From the NCBI GenBank assembly GCA_951406725.2, contig OX597819.1, forward strand, positions 29,326,001 through 29,390,000: a stretch of 64,000 nucleotides of DNA, written 5' to 3'. The translations under genes and the position numbers were made by a program. Under the pieces are notes generated by a model. It was not told the DNA's origin. It searched no databases and saw nothing but the letters and a program-made list of their open reading frames with translations. The first letter of the stretch is position 1. Each line of letters opens with the position of its first letter. The DNA is from Octopus vulgaris (Eukaryota). Positions 45 to 52,227 of this stretch are shown here, in pieces.

Positions 45-252
45 CTCTTTTACTTGTTTCAGTCATTTGACTGTGGCCATGCTGGAGCACCGCCTTTTGG
101 TCAAGCAAATCAACCCCAGGACTTATTCTTTGTAAGCCTAGTACTTATTCTATCAGTCTCTTTTGCCGAACTGCTAAGTTACAGGGACTTAAACACACCA
201 GCATTGGTTGTCAAGTGATGTTGGGGGGACAAACACAGACTCACAAACATAT

Positions 253-307
<55 letters not shown>

Positions 308-468
308 ACAGGCTTCTTTCAGTTTCCGTCTACCAAATCCACTCACAAGACTTTGGTTAACCCGAGGCTATAGTAGAAGACACTTGCCCATGGTGCCATG
401 CAGTGGGATTGAACCCAGAACCATGTGGTTGGTAAGCAAGCTACTTACCACACAGCCTCTCCTACACC
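45..468 (-). mobile_element. SINE family A (~400 bp, internal (TA)n/(TG)n)
   Basis: Head GGCTGTGTGGTAAG..GGTTCAGTCCC, tail GACTGAAACAAGTAAAAGAG; more than 12 copies in the window. Confidence 0.85.
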
Positions 469-1299
469 TATATATAAACTTTTCTATGATAATTGAAGCA
501 TATCATCATCATCATCTTTTAATGTCCACTTTCCATGTTGGAATTGGATTGAATGGTTTGACAAGTGCTGGTAAGCTGACAGGCTAAGTCAAGCCTTATT
601 GTCTCTTTCAGCATAGTTTCTATGGCTGGATGCGCTTCCTAACACCAACCACCTTACAGAGTGTACTGGGTGCTTTATTGGCAGGGTTCACCAAATACCT
701 TGCAAGACAAGACAAAGTCCCCTCCCTAACTGAGGGAAGTAGTGTTGAGGAATGTAGGCTTGTACCTATTGATCAGAGGTTAAAAGAATAGAAGGATAGA
801 AATAAGTATGTTGCTGTAGAAGAGATACAAGGATATCCCAGTTTGAGAAGATGGGAGAAGGAGACTTGAAGAGAAAGATAGAGATGGCAAGAGTGGGAGA
901 GATGGTGGTGGTGGAGATGTGTTGATATACTCTCAGGGCAAAGTGTGGTGGGTGATACAGGTGAAGAGGTGGAAGGATGGAAAATTTCATAAGAATGTGA
1001 GGAGAGGTGGTTAGATGTGATAGATATGGCTGTAGTAATTGAAGGTGAGAGGTATAGAAATGGCTCAGGTGGGAGTGGGGGTTAGATTAGATATGTGAGG
1101 ACATTAGGAGAGACAGGGGTTGAAAGAGGTGTAAGGAGGGATGGAGTATAATAGAGAGGAGGAAGCAAAGCTGGAAGAAAATAGTGAAGAAACGAAGTGA
1201 TTCTAAGGATGGAGTCTAGCAGAGGGGAGGGAGAGAGAGAGAGAGAGAGCAATGGAAGTGGTTCTGGGAGAGAAAAGAAAAGAGAAGGTATGAAAGGGG

Positions 1300-3350: not shown

Positions 3351-3715
3351 AAACCATTGAGGTATTTCTATATGGCTCGGTATTCTTTATAGCTCTTAAA
3401 GCAAAAAAAAAATAATAATAATAATAATAATAATAATCACTTGATATTCTAAGTAGCATTGATATTCTGAAACTTTCATTTGGATTGTAGACTACGTAGA
3501 ATACTTGCAGATAAAAGTTCAAAACTAAGAAGAATGGTCTAGAGTCCAAAATCTTAAATATCAACTTGGATATTAAGTATCAATGTTTAAGAATCACTAA
3601 AATAAAAAGAGGCTTTGTGCCCATACTAGAAATTAATAATTGATCTAGAGCACAAAATTGTTGGAATATAGAAATAAGATTAGTAGGAATAAATAAGTTA
3701 ATAACATTCACATAT

Positions 3716-4103
3716 AGGTGCAGAAGTGGCTGTGTGGTAAGTAGCTTGCTTACCAACCACATGGTTCCGGGTTCAGTACCACTGCATGGCACCTTGGGCA
3801 AGTGTCTTTTGTTATAGCTTCGGGCCAACCAAAGCCTTGTGAGTGGATTTGGTAGACGGAAACTGAAAGTAGCCCATCGCATTATGTATATGTATGTCTG
3901 CGTTTGTCACCCCGAACATCATTTGACATGTGATGCTGGTGTGTTTACGTCCCCATAACCCAGTGGTTCAGCAAAAAGTGACCGATAGAATAAATACTAG
4001 GCTTACAAAGAATAAGTCCCGGAGTCGATTTGCTCGACTAAAAAGGTGGTGCTCCAGCATGGCCGCAGTCAAATGACTGAAACAAGTAAAAGAATAAAAG
4101 AAT
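3716..4103 (+). mobile_element. SINE family A copy
   Basis: Matches 45-468 in reverse. Confidence 0.85.
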
Positions 4104-6349: not shown

Positions 6350-6616
6350 TTTACTATAAATAAATGCTTAGTGGCATTTAAAATAAATACTGGAGTTAAG
6401 CTGATCGAAGCAGTGCCCCAAGAGTGGTCACAATCCAATGAATGAAGCAATTAAATAATTCCAGCATGAAATGGAATATCTTTCCCTTTCATGCTTTTTG
6501 GAGTTTTTTTTTTTTTCATTCTTTTGACTTTAATAAATGCCATAAAATTATATTCACAGACTAAGATATTATTTCAAATAATAATGCAGAGTGTTAAAAA
6601 ATGTTCATAATGATAA

Positions 6617-6771
6617 CGAGTAGCTGTATGGTAAGTAGCTTACTTGCCAACCACATGGTTCTGGGTTCAGTCCCACTGCGTGGCACCTTGGGCAAGTGTC
6701 TTCTTCTATAGCCGTAGGCCGACTAAAGCCTTGGGAGTGGATTTGGTAGATGGAAACTGAGAGAAGCCCAT

Positions 6772-6834
<63 letters not shown>

Positions 6835-7030
6835 TTGTATTTATCCCTTCCCACCATCGCTTGACAACTGATGTTGGTGTGTTTATGTGCCCCGTAACTT
6901 AGCAGTTCGGCAAAATAGACTGATAGAATAAGTACTAGGCTCACAAAGAATAAGTCCTGGGGTTGATTTGTTTGACTAAAAGTGGTACTCCAGCATGGCC
7001 ACAGTCAAGTGACTGAAACAAATAAAAGAC
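6617..7030 (+). mobile_element. SINE family A copy
   Basis: Same head, internal microsatellite and tail. Confidence 0.85.
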
Positions 7031-9642: not shown

Positions 9643-9856
9643 CTCTTTTGCTTGTTTCAGTCATTTGACTGTGGCCATGCTGGAGCACCGCCTTTAGTCG
9701 AGCAAATCGACCCCAGGACTTATTCTTTGTAAGCCTAGTACTTATTCTATCAGTCGCTTTTGCCGAACTGCTAAGTTACGGGGACGTAAACACACCGGCA
9801 TCGGTTTTCAAGTGATGTTGGGGGGACAAATACAGACACACAAACATACACACACT

Positions 9857-9890
<34 letters not shown>

Positions 9891-10043
9891 ACGATGAGCT
9901 TCTTTCAGTTTCCGTCTAACAAATCCACTCACAAGGCTTTGGTTGACCTGAGGCTATAGTAGAAGACATTTGTCCAAGGTGCCACATAGTGGGACTGAAC
10001 CCGGAACCATGTGGTTGGTAAGCAAGCTACTTCCCACACAGCC
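9643..10043 (-). mobile_element. SINE family A copy inserted in the WD40 exon relic
   Basis: Same head and tail; splits VKLWK|IQV. Confidence 0.85.
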
Positions 10044-10390
10044 TTCCATAACTTAACATTGCTATCAGTTTCACTACTTCCCTGTAATGAAACTAAAAAA
10101 AAATTCCATTCCTTAACATCTAGAAGTCTGTTAGTGATTCAACATAATGACCTGCCTTTCATTAGATGTTGCCCCAAAGCAAATGAAAAATGTGAAGGAC
10201 CAAGAAGAAAAAAGAAAAACAAAAAAAAGAAAAACAGTAAAAAAAGAACAAAGTATGTAGAAATGATGCCAGGAATAATTTGTTGGAAGAGGAGCAGTGA
10301 TAAATCCCAAAAGACTATCTTAGTTGATAACACAGGGCTAATGATATTAACTTTAAGTTAATATAAGCTGAAATGTTTTATAAATTTTCA

Positions 10391-31496: not shown

Positions 31497-32040
31497 ATTG
31501 TGTTTGTGGATGGGTGGATGTCAGAAAACAGACAGTGGTGAGGTGAACGGTTTGTATCTGTGTGTGATTGTGCTTACTATAGATAGAGGGAAAGAGAGAG
31601 AGAAAGAGAGAGAAAGAGGAGGGCAAGGTATAGGGACAAAGGTAATACATACCTCACTGGATTGGGTAGTAGTTCTTTGAAAGTATAAAAAGAATTTTTT
31701 GACTATGGGGGTGAAATATATAAAAAAGAGTTATATTAATTAAAATTCAAGGGGCTATCTATATTAATCATTATTCATATGATTGAAAGGTGTGTTCTTG
31801 CCAGTGCATGCATCTGTAGGACCTCTCGACGATTGTATTTATTAAAGAGACTTTGGCGAACAAAATATGAAAAAGTTCAGAATTACAGACGCCACAATGT
31901 TTTCTACCCTTGTCAAACGGGAAGGACACCGACAATATGGACCATTCCAGTTTGAAAGTTGTATTGCTGTCCTTCAGACGCCAAACTAATTTACTTAGTC
32001 CCGTGCTGTGTTGTTTTCTCTTATCTCTGAAGGCTTGTCG
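30910..32040 (-). mobile_element. Penelope-like element 3' remnant (GIY-YIG C-terminus plus UTR/pLTR)
   Basis: 32040-31771 translates AFRDKRKQHSTGLSKLVWRLKDSNTTFKLEWSIL..FDKGRKHCGVCNSELFHILF..LIN..E..YRCMH..*, followed by a hammerhead. Confidence 0.75.
31081..31179 (-). ncRNA. Type I hammerhead ribozyme
   Basis: Stem I ttcctt..ttttc/gaaaa..aaggaa, core CTGATGA, stem II gaaagcggcata/tatgcagccttc, GAAA, palindromic stem III ACATATGT, GTC cleavage triplet. Confidence 0.8.
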
Positions 32041-34099
32041 GAGTGTATTCTTATTTGTTGTTCTGTAATTCTTCTGTATTTATATATATATATATTTATA
32101 ATGATGATGATGTTCAGAATGATGACTGAGTGCTCATGTAAATAAATATGTATACTTTAAATGAAAAAGTCATATGAATATTCATAACAGCATACATATG
32201 AAAATAATAAAGAGAAATCTTAGGTACATATACATATTTGTATTTGTTTATCTTAATAACTGTGTTGCAAATGTAGGTATCAAGTATGTGTAAGAGTGTA
32301 GACATGTGTGTGGAATCCATGGCTTTTGTGTTTATATGTGTACCTGTATGTATATAATGTGTGTGCATATAAGCATAATTTGATTTTACATGTCACATAT
32401 ATATATGTATTTATGATTATATATATATGTGTGTGTGTATATCATCATTGTCTATATATTCATAAATATGAACATGCAGGGAGGGAAGGAGGGAGGGGAG
32501 AGAGAGAGAGAGAGAGAGAGAGCAGAGAGAGAAGAAAATTCCTAATGTTCATGTATTTGCATGACAAAAGGTTGATACATTTGAGCATTTAAAAAATATT
32601 TAATTGCATGAATCAAAACTATTTATATATATATATATATATATACACACGCATCTATAATCATGTGTGTATGTGTGTATGTGCATGCATGGGTTTTTAT
32701 TTTTGCGTGGATGTTCATGCAAGATGCAAAGAATATTTTTGTCTATTACTACAATACATAATATTAATGACAAATAAATTTTTGAAAATAATTTCAAGAT
32801 GTGTTAAATAAAGATAAAATTTCAAAATCACAAGGAAAGAACCAAACCAAAAAAAAAACCAAAAAAAAAACAACAGAAAACAACAAAACAGAAGAAAAAA
32901 AATTAAGGTAAATATGTAGAAGGGTATTAGAAATGAGAATTATATCAAACAACTTATTGTACAACTAGCTTTCTTTATTATTTTGAATATTATAGAATTT
33001 TACTTGTACAATGTAGAAATGTACATAAAGACTAGTATTTTTTGCAGTCTGTGTTTGTTTGCATTCTGATATGGTTTCGAAAGAATGAAAACTTCAAATA
33101 TTTGAAAGATAATTTAATAAATAAAGCATTCAGTTTAATAAAAATCAATTTTGAATAAGTTCTCTTTGAAATATTTATAAAGACAATTCGTATTGTTTGT
33201 TTGGTTTGCTATCAATTGGTAAATTTCTCACAAGATGTTTCTTTTACTCACTCATATGTATGTGTGTACACACAAACACACACACACACACACACATATG
33301 CAACGCGTATCCAATTATACACGTACACATGTATACACAACATTTTGCATCAGCTTTTCCATGCGTGCATATATATATGAATATATGCATATACACATAC
33401 ATATGTACACGCACACACACACACATATATATAATATATATATAAATATATATATAATAAATATATATATCTTTATATATATAAAACTGAGAATGTGTGT
33501 CTGTCTGTCTGTGTGTTTCCCTAAAACTTGAGAACTACACAACCAATTTCATTCAAATTTTACACATGCCTTACTTAGGGTCCGGGGAGTGTCATCGGCA
33601 AAAATAATTTTGAACTTTTTGCCTAGGGCGAGCCCACAGCAATATCATATCTTCTCCACTACGATTCCCAAAAACTTGAGAACTACACAACCAATTCCAT
33701 TCAAATTTTACACATGCCTTACTTAGGGTCCATGTAGTTTCATGGGCAAAACAAATGTTCACCTTCTTGCCTAGAGCGAGCCCATAGCAATATCATATCT
33801 TCTCCACTATTTCAGTATTACGTGTTAAAAGATAAACAAAAACGTTTCTCTATTTTATGTCAGATACTTTCACTTTAACAATAAAAATAATAATAACAAT
33901 TGAATTATATGTAGTAAGTAACAATTAAAATCAAACTAAAGTATAATATAATCGTAACATAACAAAAGTAAAAATAGCAATTGGTATAAAATTGCATCAA
34001 TGATTTGAACTTGAATAAGTGGTTTCACATGAATAGGAATAAATTAAAAATAAAATTAGCATGCAGAAATGGAATAGTCCAGATGGATAATAAAAAATT

Positions 34100-34166
34100 A
34101 AATTAAAGAAAAGACTATTGTCTATAATGTAGAGAAAAAAGAAGATTTGAACACATGGCGGAAAGC
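34100..34166 (+). pseudogene. Left part of an older Tx1-like ORF1 relic (insertion target)
   Basis: Translates IKEKTIVYNV.. and RFEHM(E)ES, which joins across the TSD to TIEKCLGATMKGI. Parallels KRIIYKT..QKIEEKKIEFCLKPIMDKI of the inserted ORF1. Confidence 0.6.
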
Positions 34167-34378
34167 TATTTTTGCGTTTATTAGTAAGTTTGTATATTTT
34201 GCTCTCGTCGTATTATCTCTGTTTTTCTGTATTGTTTGTCAACCGTTGTGTACCATTACTGTCTAACTGTCAAAGTCAGCCTTCACGCGAGGACTTCACG
34301 TTGGTGTTCTCCCCTCTGTGGGGGAAAACTACAATTAATTTGGAATTTCCAAAGGCTTGTTATAGCCATTTGTTCAAG

Positions 34379-35750
34379 ATGGAGTCCCCCATCTCTTATT
34401 CGCCCGTGACGAGCGAGGACGAATACCCAGCGTTGTCGCCAGGAAAAAAAGAGGCGTTGTCACCAAGAAAAAAAGAGGCGTTGTCGCCGAAGAAAAAAGA
34501 GGTGGCGTCGCCCAAGAAAATAGAAAAACCAGTACCAGCATCAACTCCAGCGAAAAAATTTGCTGAAGTAGCTGGGAAAAAGATTAAAACAATAAATGTT
34601 GAAAATCTGGAAAAATTTGCAGACAGTGTAAAGAAAGAGGGCACAGAGGTGACTGTGGTCACAAACATACAGAAACAAACGATATAGAGAAGAAAAGAAT
34701 TATATATAAAACTTACAACACAGCAACAAGAATGATACAGAAAATTGAGGAAAAAAAAATAGAGTTTTGTCTGAAACCGATAATGGACAAAATAACCTAT
34801 ATAAACAGAGGAAAAAGATACGGCACAGTGGAGGTGCGTTTTACCACTGAAGAGATAGCGAAAAAACTATTGATGGAGACGATCAAAGCAGAAAACATTG
34901 TTTTATTACCATTATATAGAGGAAAGCGGACGTCAAAAATCACAATGAACAACATACCGCCAGAAGCAGATGCAGAATGTCTGGTGGCAGCAGTGATGGT
35001 AGGCCTGGAGGAAAAAATAAACATCCTCCAGGCCACAGTGGAAGAAGAGGAGTTCTGGAAAGGACAAAAAATAGTGATAGCCATTCAGGCGGAGGTACAA
35101 ACACTGGAAGAAATTCCAGAAATGGTAAAAATCAGCGAAGATGAAAAAATAACAGTTTTCGTGGAGGGCAGGAAGCCGAGGTGCTTCGGCTGCGGCAAGA
35201 AGGGTCATGTAAGGGCGGAATGCCAACCCCAACCGCAGGAAGCACCGAAGCCAAGAGAAAAAGAAGAAAATGTGTCACCAGAAGCAGCGTCGGACGGCCC
35301 AGAAGGGAAGACCGAAGGTGTGGAGGTGACGGTGACAGCAGAACCAGCGGCGGAGGAGAATAAGAGCGAGGAAAAGATAAATGAGGAGGGGTGGAAAAAA
35401 ATTACCGAAAAAAAAAAAGAAAAACGGAAACCACCCCTCCCAGAATAATTTTAAAAAAGAAAAGAGAGACAATGGACTCATATATGGCCGTAAAGGCAGC
35501 AAATAGCAGACTAGGAAACATGTTAGCTGCTATGGCCAAAGTGGAGAAAGTGGAAAAGAAAAATGACTTTGTAATCTACAGAATAGGCCGGAAGGATTAC
35601 GGGCGGATAAAATCCGAATTCTTCCACGACGTAGGCCCACTTAGATTGGATGTGACATCTCCACATATATTCGAGGGCCTACGTCGGACTCCCCCACGAG
35701 GCCCAGAAAAAGAGTTAGAAGAACAAGAGAAAACCGAACCACTGATATAA
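34379..35750 (+). pseudogene. ORF1 (gag-like nucleic-acid chaperone) of the Tx1-like element, split by two frameshifts
   Basis: Starts MESPISYSP at 34379 with SPxKK repeats. Shifts near 34660-34680 into the frame DIEKKRIIYKTYN..MIQK..RYGTVEVRF..PLYRGKR, which has zinc knuckle CFGCGKKGHVRAEC. Second shift in the A-run near 35410 into the 35391-35750 frame, whose stop lies 8 nt before the ORF2 ATG. Confidence 0.8.
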
Positions 35751-35758
35751 AGGTAAGT

Positions 35759-36416
35759 ATGGATTATATTTATGTTGGTTGTTTGAATGTGCGCGGCCTG
35801 GGAGCAGGCTGGAAGCAAGGTCGCTTCCTGCATGATATCAGGTCGCGTAATTTAGATGTTATTGTTGCTACAGAAACCCGGTTAGAGGGGCCAAGAGGTC
35901 TGCTCCCGCTGTTTGACGGCTACGAGAGTTTTTTCTCTCCTGGCAGTCCCACTGGTGGAAGTGGGGTGTTGGTCCTAATAAAAAGAAACCGGGTTTCTGA
36001 GAAAAAGTTAATTTTTGCAGATCCAGAAGGTAGGCTGGTCGTCATGGATTTGACGTTCAGTAATGGTAAAGTTATCAGACTGGTTGCAATTTACGCACCC
36101 AACCATACAGGGCAAAGTGATTATTTTTGTGAACTAGAAAACTTTCTTGGTACTTCGCATTCATTAGTTGTGCTAGGAGACTTTAACACAATTTGCAAAG
36201 CGGATGTAGATTGTGTTGGCTCGCGTCCAGATAGAAAAGGTAACAGTGGCTTCATGGAACTGCTAAGCCGCTTTGAGCTAGCAGATCCTTATAGGGACAT
36301 GGTCAAACAGCAACGGATCTTCCAGGTCATATTTAGATAGAATACTAATTAGAAAAGTAGACAGTAAAATAGCTAAGTGTCCACAGTTTTACCCGATCAG
36401 CTACAATGATCATAAA
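35759..36416 (+). pseudogene. ORF2 N-terminal apurinic endonuclease domain, frameshifted at ~36296
   Basis: Motifs LNVRGL, ATETR, IYAPN, GDFN, DPYR. After a short deletion the other frame reads TWSNSNGSSRSYLDRIL..YNDHKMV, which is continuous with the 36417 ORF. Confidence 0.88.
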
Positions 36417-39128
36417 ATGGTCACTTGTAAGCTTGACATAGATAAGGTTAAAAATAGAGGATCCGGTTACTGGAAACTTAATACGTCCCTTTTGGCGATT
36501 AAGGAGTACAAAGACCGGATTAGGGATATAATTCAGAGGGCACTATCTGGTACCATCATTAATAACAAATGGTGGTACGCCCTCAAACAAGCCATCAAGT
36601 TTGAGTCTATTAGATATAGCATAGGAGTAGTGGCTAGAGAGGCTAGAAGGGAAACTACTCTAGTTAAGGAATTAGAGGAAGCCATGAAAACTGGCTCTGC
36701 GGCTCAGGTGGCGTCCCAGAGACTGGTGTTAAACCAGCACCTCGAGGCCAAACACATGGGCTGCATTGTCAGGGCTAGAATCCGCCATATGGGATGTGAA
36801 GGAATCAACGCCGTGAGATGGGCCCGAGTGGTGGAAGCACAGCATGGTAACGATGCCATGATTCGATATTTGACGAACCAACAAGGTGAGATGATAAACG
36901 AACCCGAGGAGATGTGTGAGGCCTTTCAGGAGCACTTCGCTCAGCTTTTCGGTGAGTGCGGCGGACTGGATAGGAGGAGGGCCTTTACGGACCTACTCGA
37001 CGGGCTGCCGCGCTTATCGGGGCGAGATGCGGAGGGCTGTGAAGGGCCAATCACGCCTGAGGAGGTGGTTGAGGCAATGGCGGACTGCAGCGCGGGCAAG
37101 GTGCCGGGTTTGGATGGTCTACCCTATGAGTTATATAAGAGTATGCCAGACTTGTTCGGGCACTTACTGGCGGAGGTCTATGCGAACTGGCAGCAGAACG
37201 GGCTTATACCCAGATCTGTGTGCCAGGGAGTAGTGACTCTCGTTAGAAAGGACCCGAGCAAGGGGGAGTGCATTGATAATTTCAGGCCCATCACTCTGCT
37301 AAACACAGAGTTGAAGATTTTGGCCAAAGTGTTATCGAAAAGATTGGCGCGTGTCGCGGATGGTCTGATCGGAGGGGCACAGACATGTGCCGTTCCGGGC
37401 AGATCCATTCAGGATAATCTCCATCTAATGCGGTACACTATAGAGGGGTTTAATAGTGATTCTGGCAAGGGTGGGGCACTGGTCCATTTAGACCAATCTA
37501 AAGCTTTTGATAGGGTCGACCATCGTTACCTGGTATCTGCCCTGGCACAGTTCGGGCTGAGCCTTGGCTTCCTCAGGTGGATTATCCAAATTTATGATAA
37601 CATCGACTCGGTAGTTCGGGTGAATGGCTTCTTGTCGAAGCCGTTCAAAATCAAACGCTCGGTTCGTCAAGGGTGTCCGCTCTCCCCGCTTTTGTACGTG
37701 ATGGCTCTAGAGCCATTACTGCGAAAACTGAGCGGCATCCCAAGACAGCCAGGTAATGGAAAATCAGTGTCAGCGTACGCGGATGACATCACCATCATCG
37801 TAACCGAAATGGACCACCTATGTAAAGTAGGCAAGGCCATAGAGGTTTACGAGACGGTGACAGGAGCAAAAGTTAATCGCGAAAAGTCAGTCGGCTTGCA
37901 ACTCGGCATCTGGAGAGGCAAGTCGATGCCTCCTGACAGCGTCGTGGGACGTTGGACGGAGGGTCCGATTAAATTGCTAGGGGTCTGGTTCGGTCCAGAC
38001 CTCCAAATAGAGAAGAATTGGGGCGAGGTAACGAGCAAGGTGGCTGCAGTAGCCAAGACCTGGTCTTGGCGGTGGCTATCCCTGAAAGGGAGGGCGGAAG
38101 TGGCCAATGTGTTTATCGCATCGGTTATCACCTTCCGCCTTTCCGTCGTTCCTTGCCCTGATTCGTGGTTGATCAAGTTGGAAAGACAGCTCTTCTACTT
38201 CTTGTGGAAGGGCGGGAAACCACTTGTGAAACGCTCTACTTGCTGTCAACAACCGTTAAAGGGTGGGCTAGGGATGCCTTGGCTGATGATGCGCAGACAT
38301 GCGCTGAGGTTAAGACATCTGTGGCTCTACCTGGATGGTGAACGGGTGTGGTCTTCGCTAGCAAAACTGATGTTTCCCAAGTTCACTAGTTTCGGTGGAT
38401 GGGAAACCTGGCTGAATCGTAGATCGAAACTTGGTACTTGGTACACGGAGTGTCGCAAGGCTCTCCTGCTATTCCGTCGCTCGGGCAACGCCTGCGGTGG
38501 GGGTTCCACCACATTCTTCAATAGAGGGTTGGTAGAGGCGGAATGTGAAGATACCTTGGGGGAAACCCTAGGTCTCGACGATAATCAGCTGGCCAGTCTG
38601 TTCCGACGTACGTTCAAGCCGAGGACACTGGACAACTTCCAGAAGTCTCTGGCATGGCAATGCTACAGAGGAGCTCTACCTGTACGGGATAAACTCGCAA
38701 GGCACGGTGGCCAAGACAGTCCGATATGTCCAAGATGCAGGCGGGATAGGGAAACCGTCCCGCACGCTATTGTTCATTGTCCAGACGTGTCTGAGGTGTG
38801 GGTTTATGCCGAACAGCTGTTGTCAGGTACACGAAGAGTACAGCTGTCGACTGAGTCGATTACAAAAATTGACCCACCAGATTTCCTCATGAATGAAGGT
38901 AAGTTTCGTTTTCTCGTTGTAGTAGCAATTGCGAAAGAGGTGATATGGAAGACGAGAATGAAAGGTCTACAGTCAGGCAAGTTCATCTCCGGCCCTGGTT
39001 TGATGAATTATTTCATCTTTCACCTGAAAAGGAAGATAGGGCTGGAGAGAATATGCCTGACTAGGAGAGTGTATGAAGAACGATGGAAAGATGTAGCACG
39101 AAAGTTGCGAGTGAATGATACAACATAA
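36417..39128 (+). CDS. ORF2 remainder: reverse transcriptase plus C-terminal zinc finger (903 aa open frame)
   Basis: Motifs GYWKLN, KVPGLDG, FRPITLLN, LDQSKAFDRVDH, VRQGCPLSP, AYADD, LLGV, GGLGMP and CPRC..ETVPHAIVHC, typical of L1/Tx1 ORF2. Confidence 0.93.
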   Translation: MVTCKLDIDKVKNRGSGYWKLNTSLLAIKEYKDRIRDIIQRALSGTIINNKWWYALKQAIKFESIRYSIGVVAREARRETTLVKELEEAMKTGSAAQVASQRLVLNQHLEAKHMGCIVRARIRHMGCEGINAVRWARVVEAQHGNDAMIRYLTNQQGEMINEPEEMCEAFQEHFAQLFGECGGLDRRRAFTDLLDGLPRLSGRDAEGCEGPITPEEVVEAMADCSAGKVPGLDGLPYELYKSMPDLFGHLLAEVYANWQQNGLIPRSVCQGVVTLVRKDPSKGECIDNFRPITLLNTELKILAKVLSKRLARVADGLIGGAQTCAVPGRSIQDNLHLMRYTIEGFNSDSGKGGALVHLDQSKAFDRVDHRYLVSALAQFGLSLGFLRWIIQIYDNIDSVVRVNGFLSKPFKIKRSVRQGCPLSPLLYVMALEPLLRKLSGIPRQPGNGKSVSAYADDITIIVTEMDHLCKVGKAIEVYETVTGAKVNREKSVGLQLGIWRGKSMPPDSVVGRWTEGPIKLLGVWFGPDLQIEKNWGEVTSKVAAVAKTWSWRWLSLKGRAEVANVFIASVITFRLSVVPCPDSWLIKLERQLFYFLWKGGKPLVKRSTCCQQPLKGGLGMPWLMMRRHALRLRHLWLYLDGERVWSSLAKLMFPKFTSFGGWETWLNRRSKLGTWYTECRKALLLFRRSGNACGGGSTTFFNRGLVEAECEDTLGETLGLDDNQLASLFRRTFKPRTLDNFQKSLAWQCYRGALPVRDKLARHGGQDSPICPRCRRDRETVPHAIVHCPDVSEVWVYAEQLLSGTRRVQLSTESITKIDPPDFLMNEGKFRFLVVVAIAKEVIWKTRMKGLQSGKFISGPGLMNYFIFHLKRKIGLERICLTRRVYEERWKDVARKLRVNDTT

Positions 39129-39376
39129 ATGTAAGACCAAGCGTAACCAAAAGTATCAGTGGGGAGGCGGGGCTCATGGGGTCCGAGCTAAACCCGCACC
39201 CACTCCACCCGTAATGTCTTCCGGTCTGTTACATCATTCGATTTCTGTCCATTTATTGTAATTTCATGAAAATTTTTAAATTCGTTTTATTGTAAAAACC
39301 CATTTGTGTGTCTGACCCCATCAGCAGATTGTATTGTCCCATCTATGTTCGCTCCTTGTGGGTAATAATAAAACAG

Positions 39377-39690
39377 CATGGAGGAAAGCACCATTGAAAA
39401 GTGTCTTGGTGCAACTATGAAAGGTATCTAATCAGAGACGGTAAATTCGCCACAATAGAAGCAAGGTTTGAGTCAACGGAGCATGCAAGGGAGTACTCGA
39501 CTCGAACTTACAAAGTGGAAATATTTTATTTTTACCTTTATATCTGGGGCGTAGGACGTCCCGCAAAAAATTTTTTTAATGCCCCCCCCCCTCCCCGAAG
39601 TAGAGGTAGGCTGGATTGTAGCCACACTTCTATACAAGAGGGAGGACAAGATACAATTGATCGAAATTACAAGAGACGGGATAACAATTC
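39377..39690 (+). pseudogene. Right part of the older Tx1-like ORF1 relic
   Basis: Frameshifted pieces MEESTIEKCLGATMKGI / DGKFATIEARFESTEHARE / ILFLPLYLGRRTS / PEVEVGWIVATLLYKREDKIQLIEIT align with IEFCLKPIMDKI / KRYGTVEVRFTTEEIAK / VLLPLYRGKRTS / PEADAECLVAAVMVGLEEKINILQAT. Confidence 0.8.
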
Positions 39691-39870
39691 CAGTCTGTTA
39701 TATATTTTGAGTATTGTTATCACCAGCGATATCAAGATATAACTTTGTATTTTGTATTTTATGTGTAGATGTATATATATAGATGTACATGTAATATGTA
39801 CACATATATATACACATATATACATGCACTAGCACTATGACCCGGCAACGACGGGTCTTTAATGCTAGTA

Positions 39871-40753: not shown

Positions 40754-41329
40754 TAATGATGGTGATGTGTGTGCATGTGTTTGTGAATATGTGAGAGAGA
40801 TCTGAGGCTAATCTACTGGCAATAAAGTTAAGTTTATTCGCATCAAGAATGCCAGTTGACCAAAGGCTATTGAGCTCATTCTTCCTACATAAGATTGCTA
40901 CTTTCTTTTATTGCTTCATATTGGTTTCATTTAATGTCTCATGTAGAAAGAAAATCTCAAAGCACATCTGTTACTTTAAAGAATTAACATTAGAAAGAAG
41001 TGAGAGCATAGTGTAAGAGTCCGTATGGGTTTCCCTATCTTTTTCTGCATGTATACCTTCTAAAATATTCCATTTTTTTCAAGCAGTGTCTCAGACAGAT
41101 GCAATGGAATTAACGTAGTATACTTAAGACCTGGTAGCAGTCAACCAGAGCTATAGTAGTTAATCTGACTCAACTGTATCGTTCTGTAGATGCTTTGTGC
41201 CTGCATTCTAACACATTTCTAATGAAAACTTCTGGCATAACTGTGTGGTTAAGATGTTTGTTTTGGAACAACTTCTTTTCAGATTAATTCTAATTTGTGG
41301 CATCTAGGCCAAGAACATTCTGCAATGAC

Positions 41330-41934
41330 AGGTACAGGTGTGGCTGTGTGGTAAGAAGCTTGATTCCCAACCATGTGGTTCCAGGTTCAGTCCCACTGCA
41401 TGGCACTTCGGGCAAGTGTCCTCAACTATAAACCTGGGTTGACCAAAGCCTTGTGAGTGGATTTGGTGGACAGAAACTGAAAGAAGCCAGTTGTATGTGT
41501 ATATATGTATATATATAACTATGTGTGTGTGTATGTGTGTGTGTATTTGTGTCTGTGTTTGTCCCTCCACCATGGCTTGACAATCAGTTCTGGTGCATTT
41601 ACATCCCCCATAACTTAGAGACTAACAGAATAAATGCCAGGCTTAAAGAAAAAAAAGGTACTTGGGGTGATACATTCGACAAAAGATTCTTCAAGGTGGT
41701 GCCCCTGCATGGCCACAGACTGATGACTGAAACAAGTAAAAGATAAACGATAAATTATTTCTTAGTGACTAAGACGTAGGGGTGGCTGTGTGGTAAGTAG
41801 CTTGCTTATGAACCACATGGTTCCGGGTTCAGTCCCACTGCGTGGCATCTTGGGCAAGTGTTTTCTACTATAGCTTCGGGCTGACCAAAGCCTAGTGAGT
41901 GGATTTGGTAGATGGAAACTGAAAGAAGCCCATC

Positions 41935-41992
<58 letters not shown>

Positions 41993-42052
41993 TTTTATGT
42001 GTATATGTTTGTGTGTCTGTGTTTGTCCCCCCAACATCGCTTGACAACCGAT
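41330..42052 (+). mobile_element. Two adjacent SINE family A copies
   Basis: Heads at ~41335 and ~41778; the second is truncated at a family C head fragment (42053-42113, minus). Confidence 0.8.
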
Positions 42053-48246: not shown

Positions 48247-48284
48247 TATGTATGTATGTACATAATGTACAAACATGTACATAC

Positions 48285-48946
48285 AGGCATAGGTGTGCTG
48301 TGTGGTAAGTAGCTTGCTTATGAACCACATGGTTCCGGGTTCAGTCCCACTGCATGGCACCTTGGGCAAGTGCCTTCTACTATAGCCTCGGGTTAACCAA
48401 AGCTTTGTGAGTGGATTTGGTAGGCGGAAACTGAAAGAAGCCTGCCGTGTATATATATATATATATATATCACGTAAAATGCACCAATCCGACCATGGCC
48501 GTTGCCAGCCTCGCCTGGCACCTGTGCAGGTGGCACGTAAAAAGCACCCACTACACTCACGGAGTGGTTGGCGTTAGGAAGGGCATCCAGCTGTAGAAAC
48601 ATTGCCAAATAAGACTGGAGCCTGGTGCAGCCTTCTGGCTTCCCAGATCCCCGGTCAAACCGTCCAACGCATGCTAGCATGGAGAACTGACGTTAAACGA
48701 TGATGATGATGATGATGATATGCTTTCGTGTGTATATGTTTGTGTGTCTGTGTTTGCCTCCCCAACCCAAATCGCTTGGCAACCGATGCTGGTGTGTTTA
48801 CGCCCCCGTAACTTAGCAGTTTGGCAAAAGAGACTGATAGAATAAGTACTAGGCTTACAAAGAACAAATCCTGTGGTCGATTTGCTCGACTAAAGGTGGT
48901 GCTCCAGCATGTCAACAGTCATATGACTAAAACAAGTAAAAGAGTA
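48285..48946 (+). mobile_element. SINE family A copy with RTE 3'UTR insert (48471-48718)
   Basis: Insert sits in the internal (TA)n and ends in (GAT)n. Confidence 0.8.
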
Positions 48947-51812: not shown

Positions 51813-52211
51813 CTCTTTTACTTGTTTCAGTCATTATTTGACTGTGGCCAAACTGGAGCACAGCCTTTAGTCGAGGAAATCAACCCCAGGACTTATTCTT
51901 TGTAAGCCTAGTACTTATTCTTTCGGTCTCTTTTGCCAAACCGCTAAGTTATGGGGACGTAAACACACCAGCATCGATTGTCAAGCAATGTTGGGGGGGG
52001 GGGGGACAAACACAGACACACAAACATATTTATATACATATACATATAAACGATGGGCTTCTTTCAGTTTCCATCTACCAAATCCACTTAGAAGGCTTTG
52101 GTCGGCCCAAGGCTATAGAAGAAGACACTTGCCCAAGGTGCCATGCAGTTGGACTGAACCCAGATCTGTGTGGTTGGTAAGCAAGCTACTTACCACACAG
52201 CCACTCCTGCA
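51813..52211 (-). mobile_element. SINE family A copy
   Basis: Same head and tail. Confidence 0.85.
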
Positions 52212-52227
52212 CATATAACAATAAATA

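What the first reader, a model, noticed from the sequence alone, without database searches (positions are those of the whole stretch)
33470..39868. Three-level nest: Helitron > relic Tx1 ORF1 > full-length Tx1 LINE
Seen: a Helitron-type TC start at 33470 and hairpin+CTAG|T at 39868 enclose ~1.2 kb of cargo plus the 5.2-kb LINE; the cargo includes an ORF1 fragment of a related retroelement. Established: Helitrons capture gene fragments, and Xenopus Tx1L inserts site-specifically into the DNA transposon Tx1D to form composites. Inference: a Helitron-borne fragment may act as a mobile landing pad, and the composite could move the LINE by rolling-circle transposition.
Basis: partly seen in the sequence, partly recalled or inferred. 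Interest (0 to 1): 0.72.

Follow-up and report, generated by a model that had tools for sequence, protein, structure and literature searches.

The report
LINE homing into Helitron-spread gene scrap
A small rolling-circle-type transposon carries a scrap of an old retrotransposon gene at about a thousand places in this genome, and a younger retrotransposon family sits at one exact base of that scrap in dozens of copies, likely by landing there one at a time rather than by riding along with the transposon.

Summary
The nest is real. 33470-39868 is a 1.2-kb non-autonomous Helitron holding a full-span but frameshifted 5.2-kb Tx1-like LINE. The target pattern occurs 1054 times in the genome; 69 copies are directly preceded by the family's 3' tail. 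The cargo is the 5' part of an older two-ORF LINE family, of which I found five copies outside Helitrons. The landing-pad idea holds: 38 of 46 insertion loci on six contigs lie at this site. Rolling-circle transport of the LINE is not supported. Among 51 filled loci, the 152 pairs with LINE ends under 0.5% apart have Helitron arms at least 3.2% apart, like random empty copies. Truncated copies have perfect 16-17-bp duplications. Full-length copies carry their own target-like leader, which likely anneals to the site and rebuilds it, so that ORF1-only partners stack upstream in polar arrays. Tx1 families targeting other transposons are known; I found no paper on a Helitron target.

The parts
33470..34152 (+). 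Non-autonomous Helitron, left arm (5' TC after A)
   Evidence: 1513 first-look candidates for part of it
33517..33809 (+). Two ~145-bp tandem repeats (90% alike) in the left arm; present once or twice among copies
34089..34152 (+). Relic ORF1, part upstream of the insertion site. A longer Helitron subfamily has ~560 bp more at 34087/34089 (5' UTR and ORF1 start of the parent)
34153..34168 (+). Left copy of the 16-bp target, 12/16 to the right copy; likely brought by the LINE's own 5' leader
34169..39375 (+). Tx1-like LINE, full span, 1.5% from the family majority in its 3' 1.5 kb
34379..35750 (+). LINE ORF1 (CCHC knuckle), broken over three frames
   Evidence: a 445-aa open ORF1 in a sibling
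35759..39128 (+). LINE ORF2 (APE endonuclease, RT, zf-RVT), frameshifted by a 26-bp deletion at 36295
   Evidence: 1127-1131 aa open in 14 of 38 full-length siblings
39327..39375 (+). 3' tail shared with the ORF1-only partner families, ending in AATAAAACA with no poly(A)
39376..39391 (+). Right copy of the 16-bp target duplication
39392..39680 (+). Relic ORF1 continued, up to the breakpoint where homology with the parent family ends
39839..39868 (+). Helitron 3' hairpin and CTAG, followed by T
   Evidence: similar 3' ends on 2 of 3 RepHel-coding elements examined

Best explanation
A non-autonomous Helitron carries the 5' part of an older Tx1-like LINE at about a thousand sites, and a younger Tx1-like LINE sits at one base inside that relic ORF1 in dozens of copies, likely through separate retrotransposition events into Helitron copies that were already dispersed. 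Steps: (1) A Helitron acquired the 5' UTR and first ~190 codons of a parent LINE. Homology is shown; capture versus insertion followed by deletion is inferred. (2) It spread; copies are now ~2.6-3% from their majority, and the window's subfamily lost ~560 bp (shown). (3) The LINE's endonuclease would nick at GAAC|ACATGG with a 16-17-bp stagger. The duplications are shown; the enzyme step is inferred from target-primed reverse transcription. (4) Full-length RNAs begin a few bases upstream of the nick, so they carry a target-like leader (shown at three junctions). The cDNA leader likely anneals to the target, replaces the left duplication copy and favours completed, full-length insertion (inferred, as in melanogaster-type R1). 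(5) The rebuilt left copy is likely reused by further LINEs and by ORF1-only partners sharing the 3' tail, giving arrays ordered Helitron-left, partners, LINE, Helitron-right (order shown, sequence of events inferred). The window holds a one-unit, somewhat decayed case.
For: Target pattern 1054 matches, control 0; all 20 sampled sites have the Helitron right arm. Tail plus target 69 matches. Of 46 tail loci on contigs C1-C6: 38 at the site, 7 elsewhere, 1 undetermined (my tally; six of the 38 rest on the pattern alone). Of the 40 best LINE 3' ends: 35 in the Helitron, 4 elsewhere, 1 in an array without Helitron arms. Right-arm distances: filled-filled 5.6% (946 pairs), filled-empty 5.2% (1760), empty-empty 4.8% (780); LINE 3' 2.0%; Mantel rho -0.09, p 0.74, 40 loci. 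With 51 loci and 1275 pairs, none has arms under 2% apart. In 37 of 40 loci the LINE is closer to its majority than the arm is to its own. Truncation points and left-arm deletions differ between loci. Duplications: truncated copies 16-19 bp exact (L173, L155, L160, L332, L336, L337/L338, L327); 15 of 15 single full-length fills match at only 10-14 of 16. Target-like leaders stand behind unrelated DNA in L331, L147 and L141. Truncated copies: 9 of 10 off-site against at most 4 of 35 on-site, Fisher p 7e-6. Cargo groups with the parent ORF1 at 100/99.
Against: No experiment shows the nick or the annealing. The leader rests on three junctions. One pair (L166/L170) has arm distance 2.2% and LINE distance 2.1%, the pattern of an old co-duplication, although the arms share no rare change. 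About 51 of at least 69 filled loci were compared, and these were chosen by likeness to the window. In 3 of 40 loci the LINE is not younger-looking than its arm. Some array growth is probably tandem duplication rather than new insertion (units 0-0.06% apart in L167). The excess of full-length copies on-site could also come from selection against full-length copies elsewhere. Tx1 clade placement was not tested with a reference tree.
Confidence: 0.78

Rival explanations
1. Hitchhiking: one or a few LINE-filled Helitrons were copied by RepHel in trans, and the LINE copies were later homogenised.
For: Many filled copies share the junction and most are full-length. RepHel ORFs of 1500-1744 aa exist, and 2 of 3 examined end in a similar hairpin and CTAG. 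The L166/L170 pair is not excluded.
Against: Filled arms form no clade. Filled copies occur in different Helitron variants: 10 of 69 have the ACCT site variant, and left arms have one or two repeats. The only pair with many shared arm changes (L149/C7a, 11) also shares the outer flank and 0 rare LINE changes, so it is a local duplication. No two arrays were seen with the same arms and content.
Confidence: 0.06
2. The LINE targets DNA just behind TATA boxes, and the Helitron site is favoured for its upstream TATAAA (lead from note e1-8671901).
For: A TATAAA lies 39 nt upstream of the nick in most copies. The leaders in L331 and L147 start 31 and 34 nt after its first T, and the 5' junctions of the sC partners fall about 24-31 nt after it (typical start-site spacing recalled).
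Against: Intact TATAAA is not enriched in filled copies: 31 of 39 against 54 of 63 empties, p 0.43. Of six off-site loci with a mapped duplication (L155, L160, L327, L332, L336, L337/L338), only L332 has TATAAA within 60 nt, at -52. Not tested for sC or other families off-site.
Confidence: 0.1
3. The specificity predates the capture: the LINE lineage attacked the ORF1 of the parent LINE family, and the Helitron only multiplied an existing target.
For: The five parent-type copies carry a close version of the site. An older LINE, 87% to this one, sits just upstream of the relic 5' UTR in L211.
Against: None of the 5 parent copies has the exact site, and none is interrupted there; five copies have little power at a fill rate near 7%.
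Confidence: 0.15

Closest known systems
Tx1-clade LINEs that target transposons: Xenopus Tx1 in Tx1D (piggyBac); crocodilian Tx1-Mar and SINEU-3 in Mariner-N4_AMi; Tx1-9_AMi in Harbinger; Tx1-8_Crp and Tx1-4_AMi in LTR elements (Kojima 2015, PMC4494074; passages and sections 14-15 read)
   Same: Fixed site inside a multicopy transposon, ~16-bp duplication, tandem insertions separated by one duplication, and non-autonomous partners. Hitchhiking was raised and rejected there too.
   Different: The host is a Helitron, the target is a decayed ORF1 of a related LINE, and the partners encode their own ORF1 rather than being SINEs. Helitron targets are not named in the text I read; figure 3 and the supplements were not seen.
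Drosophila R1 (Stage and Eickbush 2009, PMC2718515; passages read)
   Same: Tandem arrays built by insertion into the 5' duplication of a resident copy. Melanogaster-type RNAs carry upstream target sequence that anneals and shows up at off-target insertions.
   Different: Different clade and an rDNA target. In R1 the leader-bearing type makes few arrays, whereas here leader and arrays go together and the leader drifts between subfamilies.
ORF1-only non-autonomous LINEs HAL1, HeT-A, Ag-Sponge (PMC5786205, PMC5753468; passages read)
   Same: 1.7-1.9-kb elements with one 450-490-aa ORF1 and the partner's 3' tail.
   Different: Those come from the L1, Jockey and CR1 clades. Here at least four families share one interstitial site with a Tx1-like LINE.
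Gene-fragment-capturing non-autonomous Helitrons (recalled; PMC3288121 seen as a search listing only)
   Same: TC...hairpin-CTAG ends, A|T target, internal fragment of another sequence, internal deletion subfamilies.
   Different: The captured piece serves as the target of a retrotransposon family.

Membership tests
Non-autonomous Helitron | 5' TC preceded by A; 3' CTRR followed by T | tested here: met
   (66 of 72 listed 3' ends CTAG|T)
Non-autonomous Helitron | GC-rich hairpin shortly before the 3' end | tested here: met
   z -4.87
Non-autonomous Helitron | Dispersed copies with constant ends and unrelated flanks | tested here: met
Non-autonomous Helitron | No target duplication | tested here: inconclusive
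   Flanks differ in copies outside microsatellites, but many copies lie in (TA)n and no pre-insertion allele was seen
Non-autonomous Helitron | Autonomous RepHel partner with matching ends | tested here: inconclusive
   Similar 3' end on 2 of 3 RepHel elements; no BLAST match to either end region and no matching 5' end found
Tx1 clade LINE | ORF2 with APE endonuclease, RT and C-terminal zinc domain, L1-related | tested here: met
   Pfam; best solved structure L1 ORF2p E 7e-65 against R2 5e-26
Tx1 clade LINE | ORF1 with CCHC knuckle (feature recalled) | tested here: met
   PF00098 E 0.0028, below the curated cut-off; motif visible in all ORF1 types
Tx1 clade LINE | Target preference (over 20% of flanks in one sequence type, PMC4494074) | tested here: met
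   38 of 46 and 35 of 40
Tx1 clade LINE | RT phylogeny inside Tx1 rather than L1 | not tested
   No named reference set. One of 35 hits is named TX1, a fungal protein at 26% identity; Atlas names were generic
ORF1-only non-autonomous LINE (HAL1-like), siblings | Whole ORF1, no ORF2, 3' tail shared with an autonomous LINE | tested here: met
Composite transposon moved as a unit | Copies at unrelated loci share derived changes in both shell and insert | tested here: not met
   one pair not excluded

The most novel reading that the evidence does not exclude
By capturing the front of an old LINE, a Helitron created a new 1000-copy target, and a related LINE lineage switched to it. [quoted passage not shown] Each success rebuilds the target for a succession of ORF1-only parasites.
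Probability: 0.4. Interest if true: 0.68.

Novelty: new variant of a known kind. Interest (0 to 1): 0.46.

Why it matters
It adds Helitrons, and a captured retroelement gene fragment, to the kinds of safe target used by Tx1-like LINEs. It offers a young system, with near-identical copies and open reading frames, in which the birth of target specificity can be studied: the parent of the target, about 1000 empty sites, at least 69 filled sites and off-target events are all in one genome. The link between a 5' target copy and full-length integration bears on how non-LTR elements finish their 5' junction. The more dramatic claim, that a LINE travels by rolling circle, does not hold as the main route.

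Tried and rejected
Rolling-circle co-movement: distance, Mantel and shared-variant tests were negative. WIN/L171 looked like sisters (shared tail change, 4 arm changes), but their LINEs differ by 2-4% and share 2 rare changes of 35 and 46; five of the shared arm changes sit together beside a homopolymer run. L132/L143 have a similar unit order, but their arms are 7.3% apart. L149/C7a is a local duplication.

TATA dependence: no enrichment. A structured RNA as target: an Rfam scan of three loci gave 55 matches, none at gathering score, mostly microRNA models on simple repeats. The idea that the parent family itself targets the Helitron: two of four parent 3' ends have a Helitron nearby, but both have their own 14-16-bp duplication in other DNA.

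Expression: no RNA holder listed. Contigs of four runs cover the element, and one run under another organism label has a contig joining the two arms, but contigs cannot show transcription or start sites. The Helitron's 5' end was not covered by that lay.

Literature: five searches pairing Tx1, Helitron, target or ORF1 terms listed 1, 4, 1, 0 and 1 papers. I read passages of PMC8869645 and PMC13282606, which name no such system, and saw the others as listings only. Christensen 2000 (PMC85248) was not held. Repbase and subscription papers could not be searched, and no supplements were read, including Kojima 2015's target tables and the octopus repeat library, so absence from print is not established.

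Full report
Observation. The window shows A|TC at 33470, a hairpin and CTAG|T at 39868, and between them a 5.2-kb LINE with a CCHC ORF1 and an endonuclease-RT-zinc ORF2. The best solved relative of a sibling's open ORF2 is L1 ORF2p. The closest ORF1 relatives in the protein database are named Octopus proteins (6 of 6), so the host is likely an octopus. The window copy is decayed: ORF1 lies in three frames and ORF2 has a 26-bp deletion at 36295. Of 38 full-length siblings, 14 have an open ORF2 of at least 1050 aa and 1 has both ORFs open.

The shell. Searching the own genome with each arm gave 1513 and 1852 first-look candidates. Of the loci fetched, 22 of 29 and 24 of 29 are empty elements of about 1.05-1.2 kb with the two arms contiguous; the rest are filled at the same base. 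The 25-nt site pattern has 1054 exact matches and the reversed control 0. All 20 sites sampled from contig C1, picked for the ACCT variant of the site, carry the right arm. RepHel frames up to 1744 aa exist, and 2 of 3 examined end in a similar hairpin and CTAG|T. I found no BLAST match to either end region and no matching 5' end, so the mobilising partner is not identified.

The cargo. A longer subfamily has about 560 bp more at window 34087/34089, containing a 5' UTR and the ORF1 start. In some copies about 190 codons are open. A protein search with a natural in-frame piece led to a copy outside any Helitron whose ORF1 runs past the Helitron breakpoint into a CCHC knuckle (L281). A DNA search beyond the breakpoint gave four more. 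They match the cargo at 76-83%, and those examined continue into ORF2; four have their own 3' tail. In an ORF1 tree of 10 rows the three cargo copies group with the parent at 100/99, apart from the LINE and the partner families; the tool warns that long branches meet at the deeper joins. So the relic is the front of an older, now decayed LINE family. None of the five parent copies has the exact site or an insertion there.

Targeting. The shared 3' tail pattern has 245 exact matches, and tail plus site plus right arm has 69. On contigs C1-C6, where the listing is complete, the tails fall in 46 loci: 38 at the site, 7 elsewhere and 1 undetermined (my tally). Of the 40 best LINE 3' ends, found with a query holding no flank, 35 are in the Helitron, 4 elsewhere and 1 in an array without Helitron arms. 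Off-site events also start with AC and have 16-19-bp exact duplications where mapped.

Hitchhiking test. Right arms of filled copies differ by 5.6% on average, filled versus empty by 5.2% and empties by 4.8%. The adjacent LINE ends differ by 2.0%, and the two distances are uncorrelated (rho -0.09, p 0.74). With 51 filled loci (1275 pairs), the 152 pairs whose LINE ends are under 0.5% apart have arms at least 3.2% apart, and no pair has arms under 2% apart. Among 820 pairs from 41 loci, the one with many shared rare arm changes shares its outer flank and no rare LINE change. Truncation points and left-arm deletions are locus-specific. Against this reading: L166/L170 have equal arm and LINE distances (2.2% and 2.1%) and belong to one minority LINE subfamily. 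They share no rare arm change, but an old co-duplication from a near-consensus copy is not excluded. The sample is also biased toward copies like the window's. Independent insertion into already dispersed Helitrons is the main route.

Junction mechanism. The one truncated on-site copy with both arms has 16 of 16 matching bases, whereas all 15 single full-length fills tested match at 10-14 of 16, always differing at the end of the left copy. Three junctions show a target-like leader behind unrelated DNA, including an off-site copy with its own perfect duplication followed by the leader (L331, L147, L141). Truncated copies are 9 of 10 off-site but at most 4 of 35 on-site (p 7e-6). I infer that the RNA starts a few bases upstream of the nick and that the cDNA leader anneals to the target, as proposed for melanogaster-type R1 (PMC2718515, passages). 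Selection against full-length copies off-site is an untested alternative.

Arrays. The site also holds 1.7-1.9-kb elements with one 450-490-aa ORF1 and the shared tail, in at least four families. Arrays read Helitron-left, sC units, sA or sB units, LINE, Helitron-right, with exceptions such as L122 and L146. Most loci were found through the LINE end, which biases this order. The pattern, which does not depend on LINE-based fetching, has the LINE-type tail next to the right arm in 60 of 69, against 40 sA-type tails among the first 100 listed. Some units within an array are 0-0.06% apart (L167), so local duplication also contributes.

Comparison and novelty. Tx1 families targeting piggyBac, Mariner, Harbinger and LTR elements, tandem insertion and a rejected hitchhiking idea are described in PMC4494074. 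ORF1-only LINEs are known from other clades. Five searches found no paper on a Helitron target, with the limits given under Tried and rejected. Earlier notes of this scan describe the same system on other DNA. I tested their TATA lead and did not confirm it for this LINE. Verdict: a new variant of a known kind; observation confirmed, landing pad supported, rolling-circle transport unsupported.

Noticed in passing
G000:C7:100088868-100131570 (L249, L175, L176): An array of about two dozen 1.78-kb ORF1-only units and one LINE inside one Helitron. A local duplicate of the Helitron 15 kb away is also filled.
   Followed up: partly
L124, L126, L157, L161, L172, L174, C15a (L179-L180, L237): sC-type ORF1-only elements join the left arm 10-20 nt upstream of the usual site. 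Some inner units start with 30-75 nt of Helitron left arm, and many have almost no spacer.
   Followed up: partly
LINE 5' 1.6 kb (window 34169-35750) across siblings: The 5' UTR and ORF1 differ by 4-25% between copies while the 3' part differs by about 2%, which suggests 5' replacement or fast ORF1 change.
   Followed up: no
L122, L333, L341 left junctions: The same altered bases upstream of the nick appear in three filled loci, consistent with the leader overwriting target DNA upstream of the nick.
   Followed up: partly
L211 (G000:C1:5489650-5494650): An older LINE, 87% to the window's, is inserted just in front of the relic's 5' UTR in the long Helitron subfamily, a second site.
   Followed up: partly
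one search list, e.g. L357, L358: Many Helitron copies with open RepHel frames of 1500-1744 aa and identical scores, which suggests recent activity.
   Followed up: partly
window 96-472, 3704-3950, 6598-6844, 9693-10058, 41318-42006, 48272-48518, 51866-52217: A multi-copy SINE-like repeat of about 400 bp with an internal (TA)n, in both orientations, and many microsatellites.
   Followed up: no
window 31771-32079 (-): A short frame resembling the end of a GIY-YIG/Penelope-type protein; a similar frame lies in L281 (resemblance recalled, not tested).
   Followed up: no
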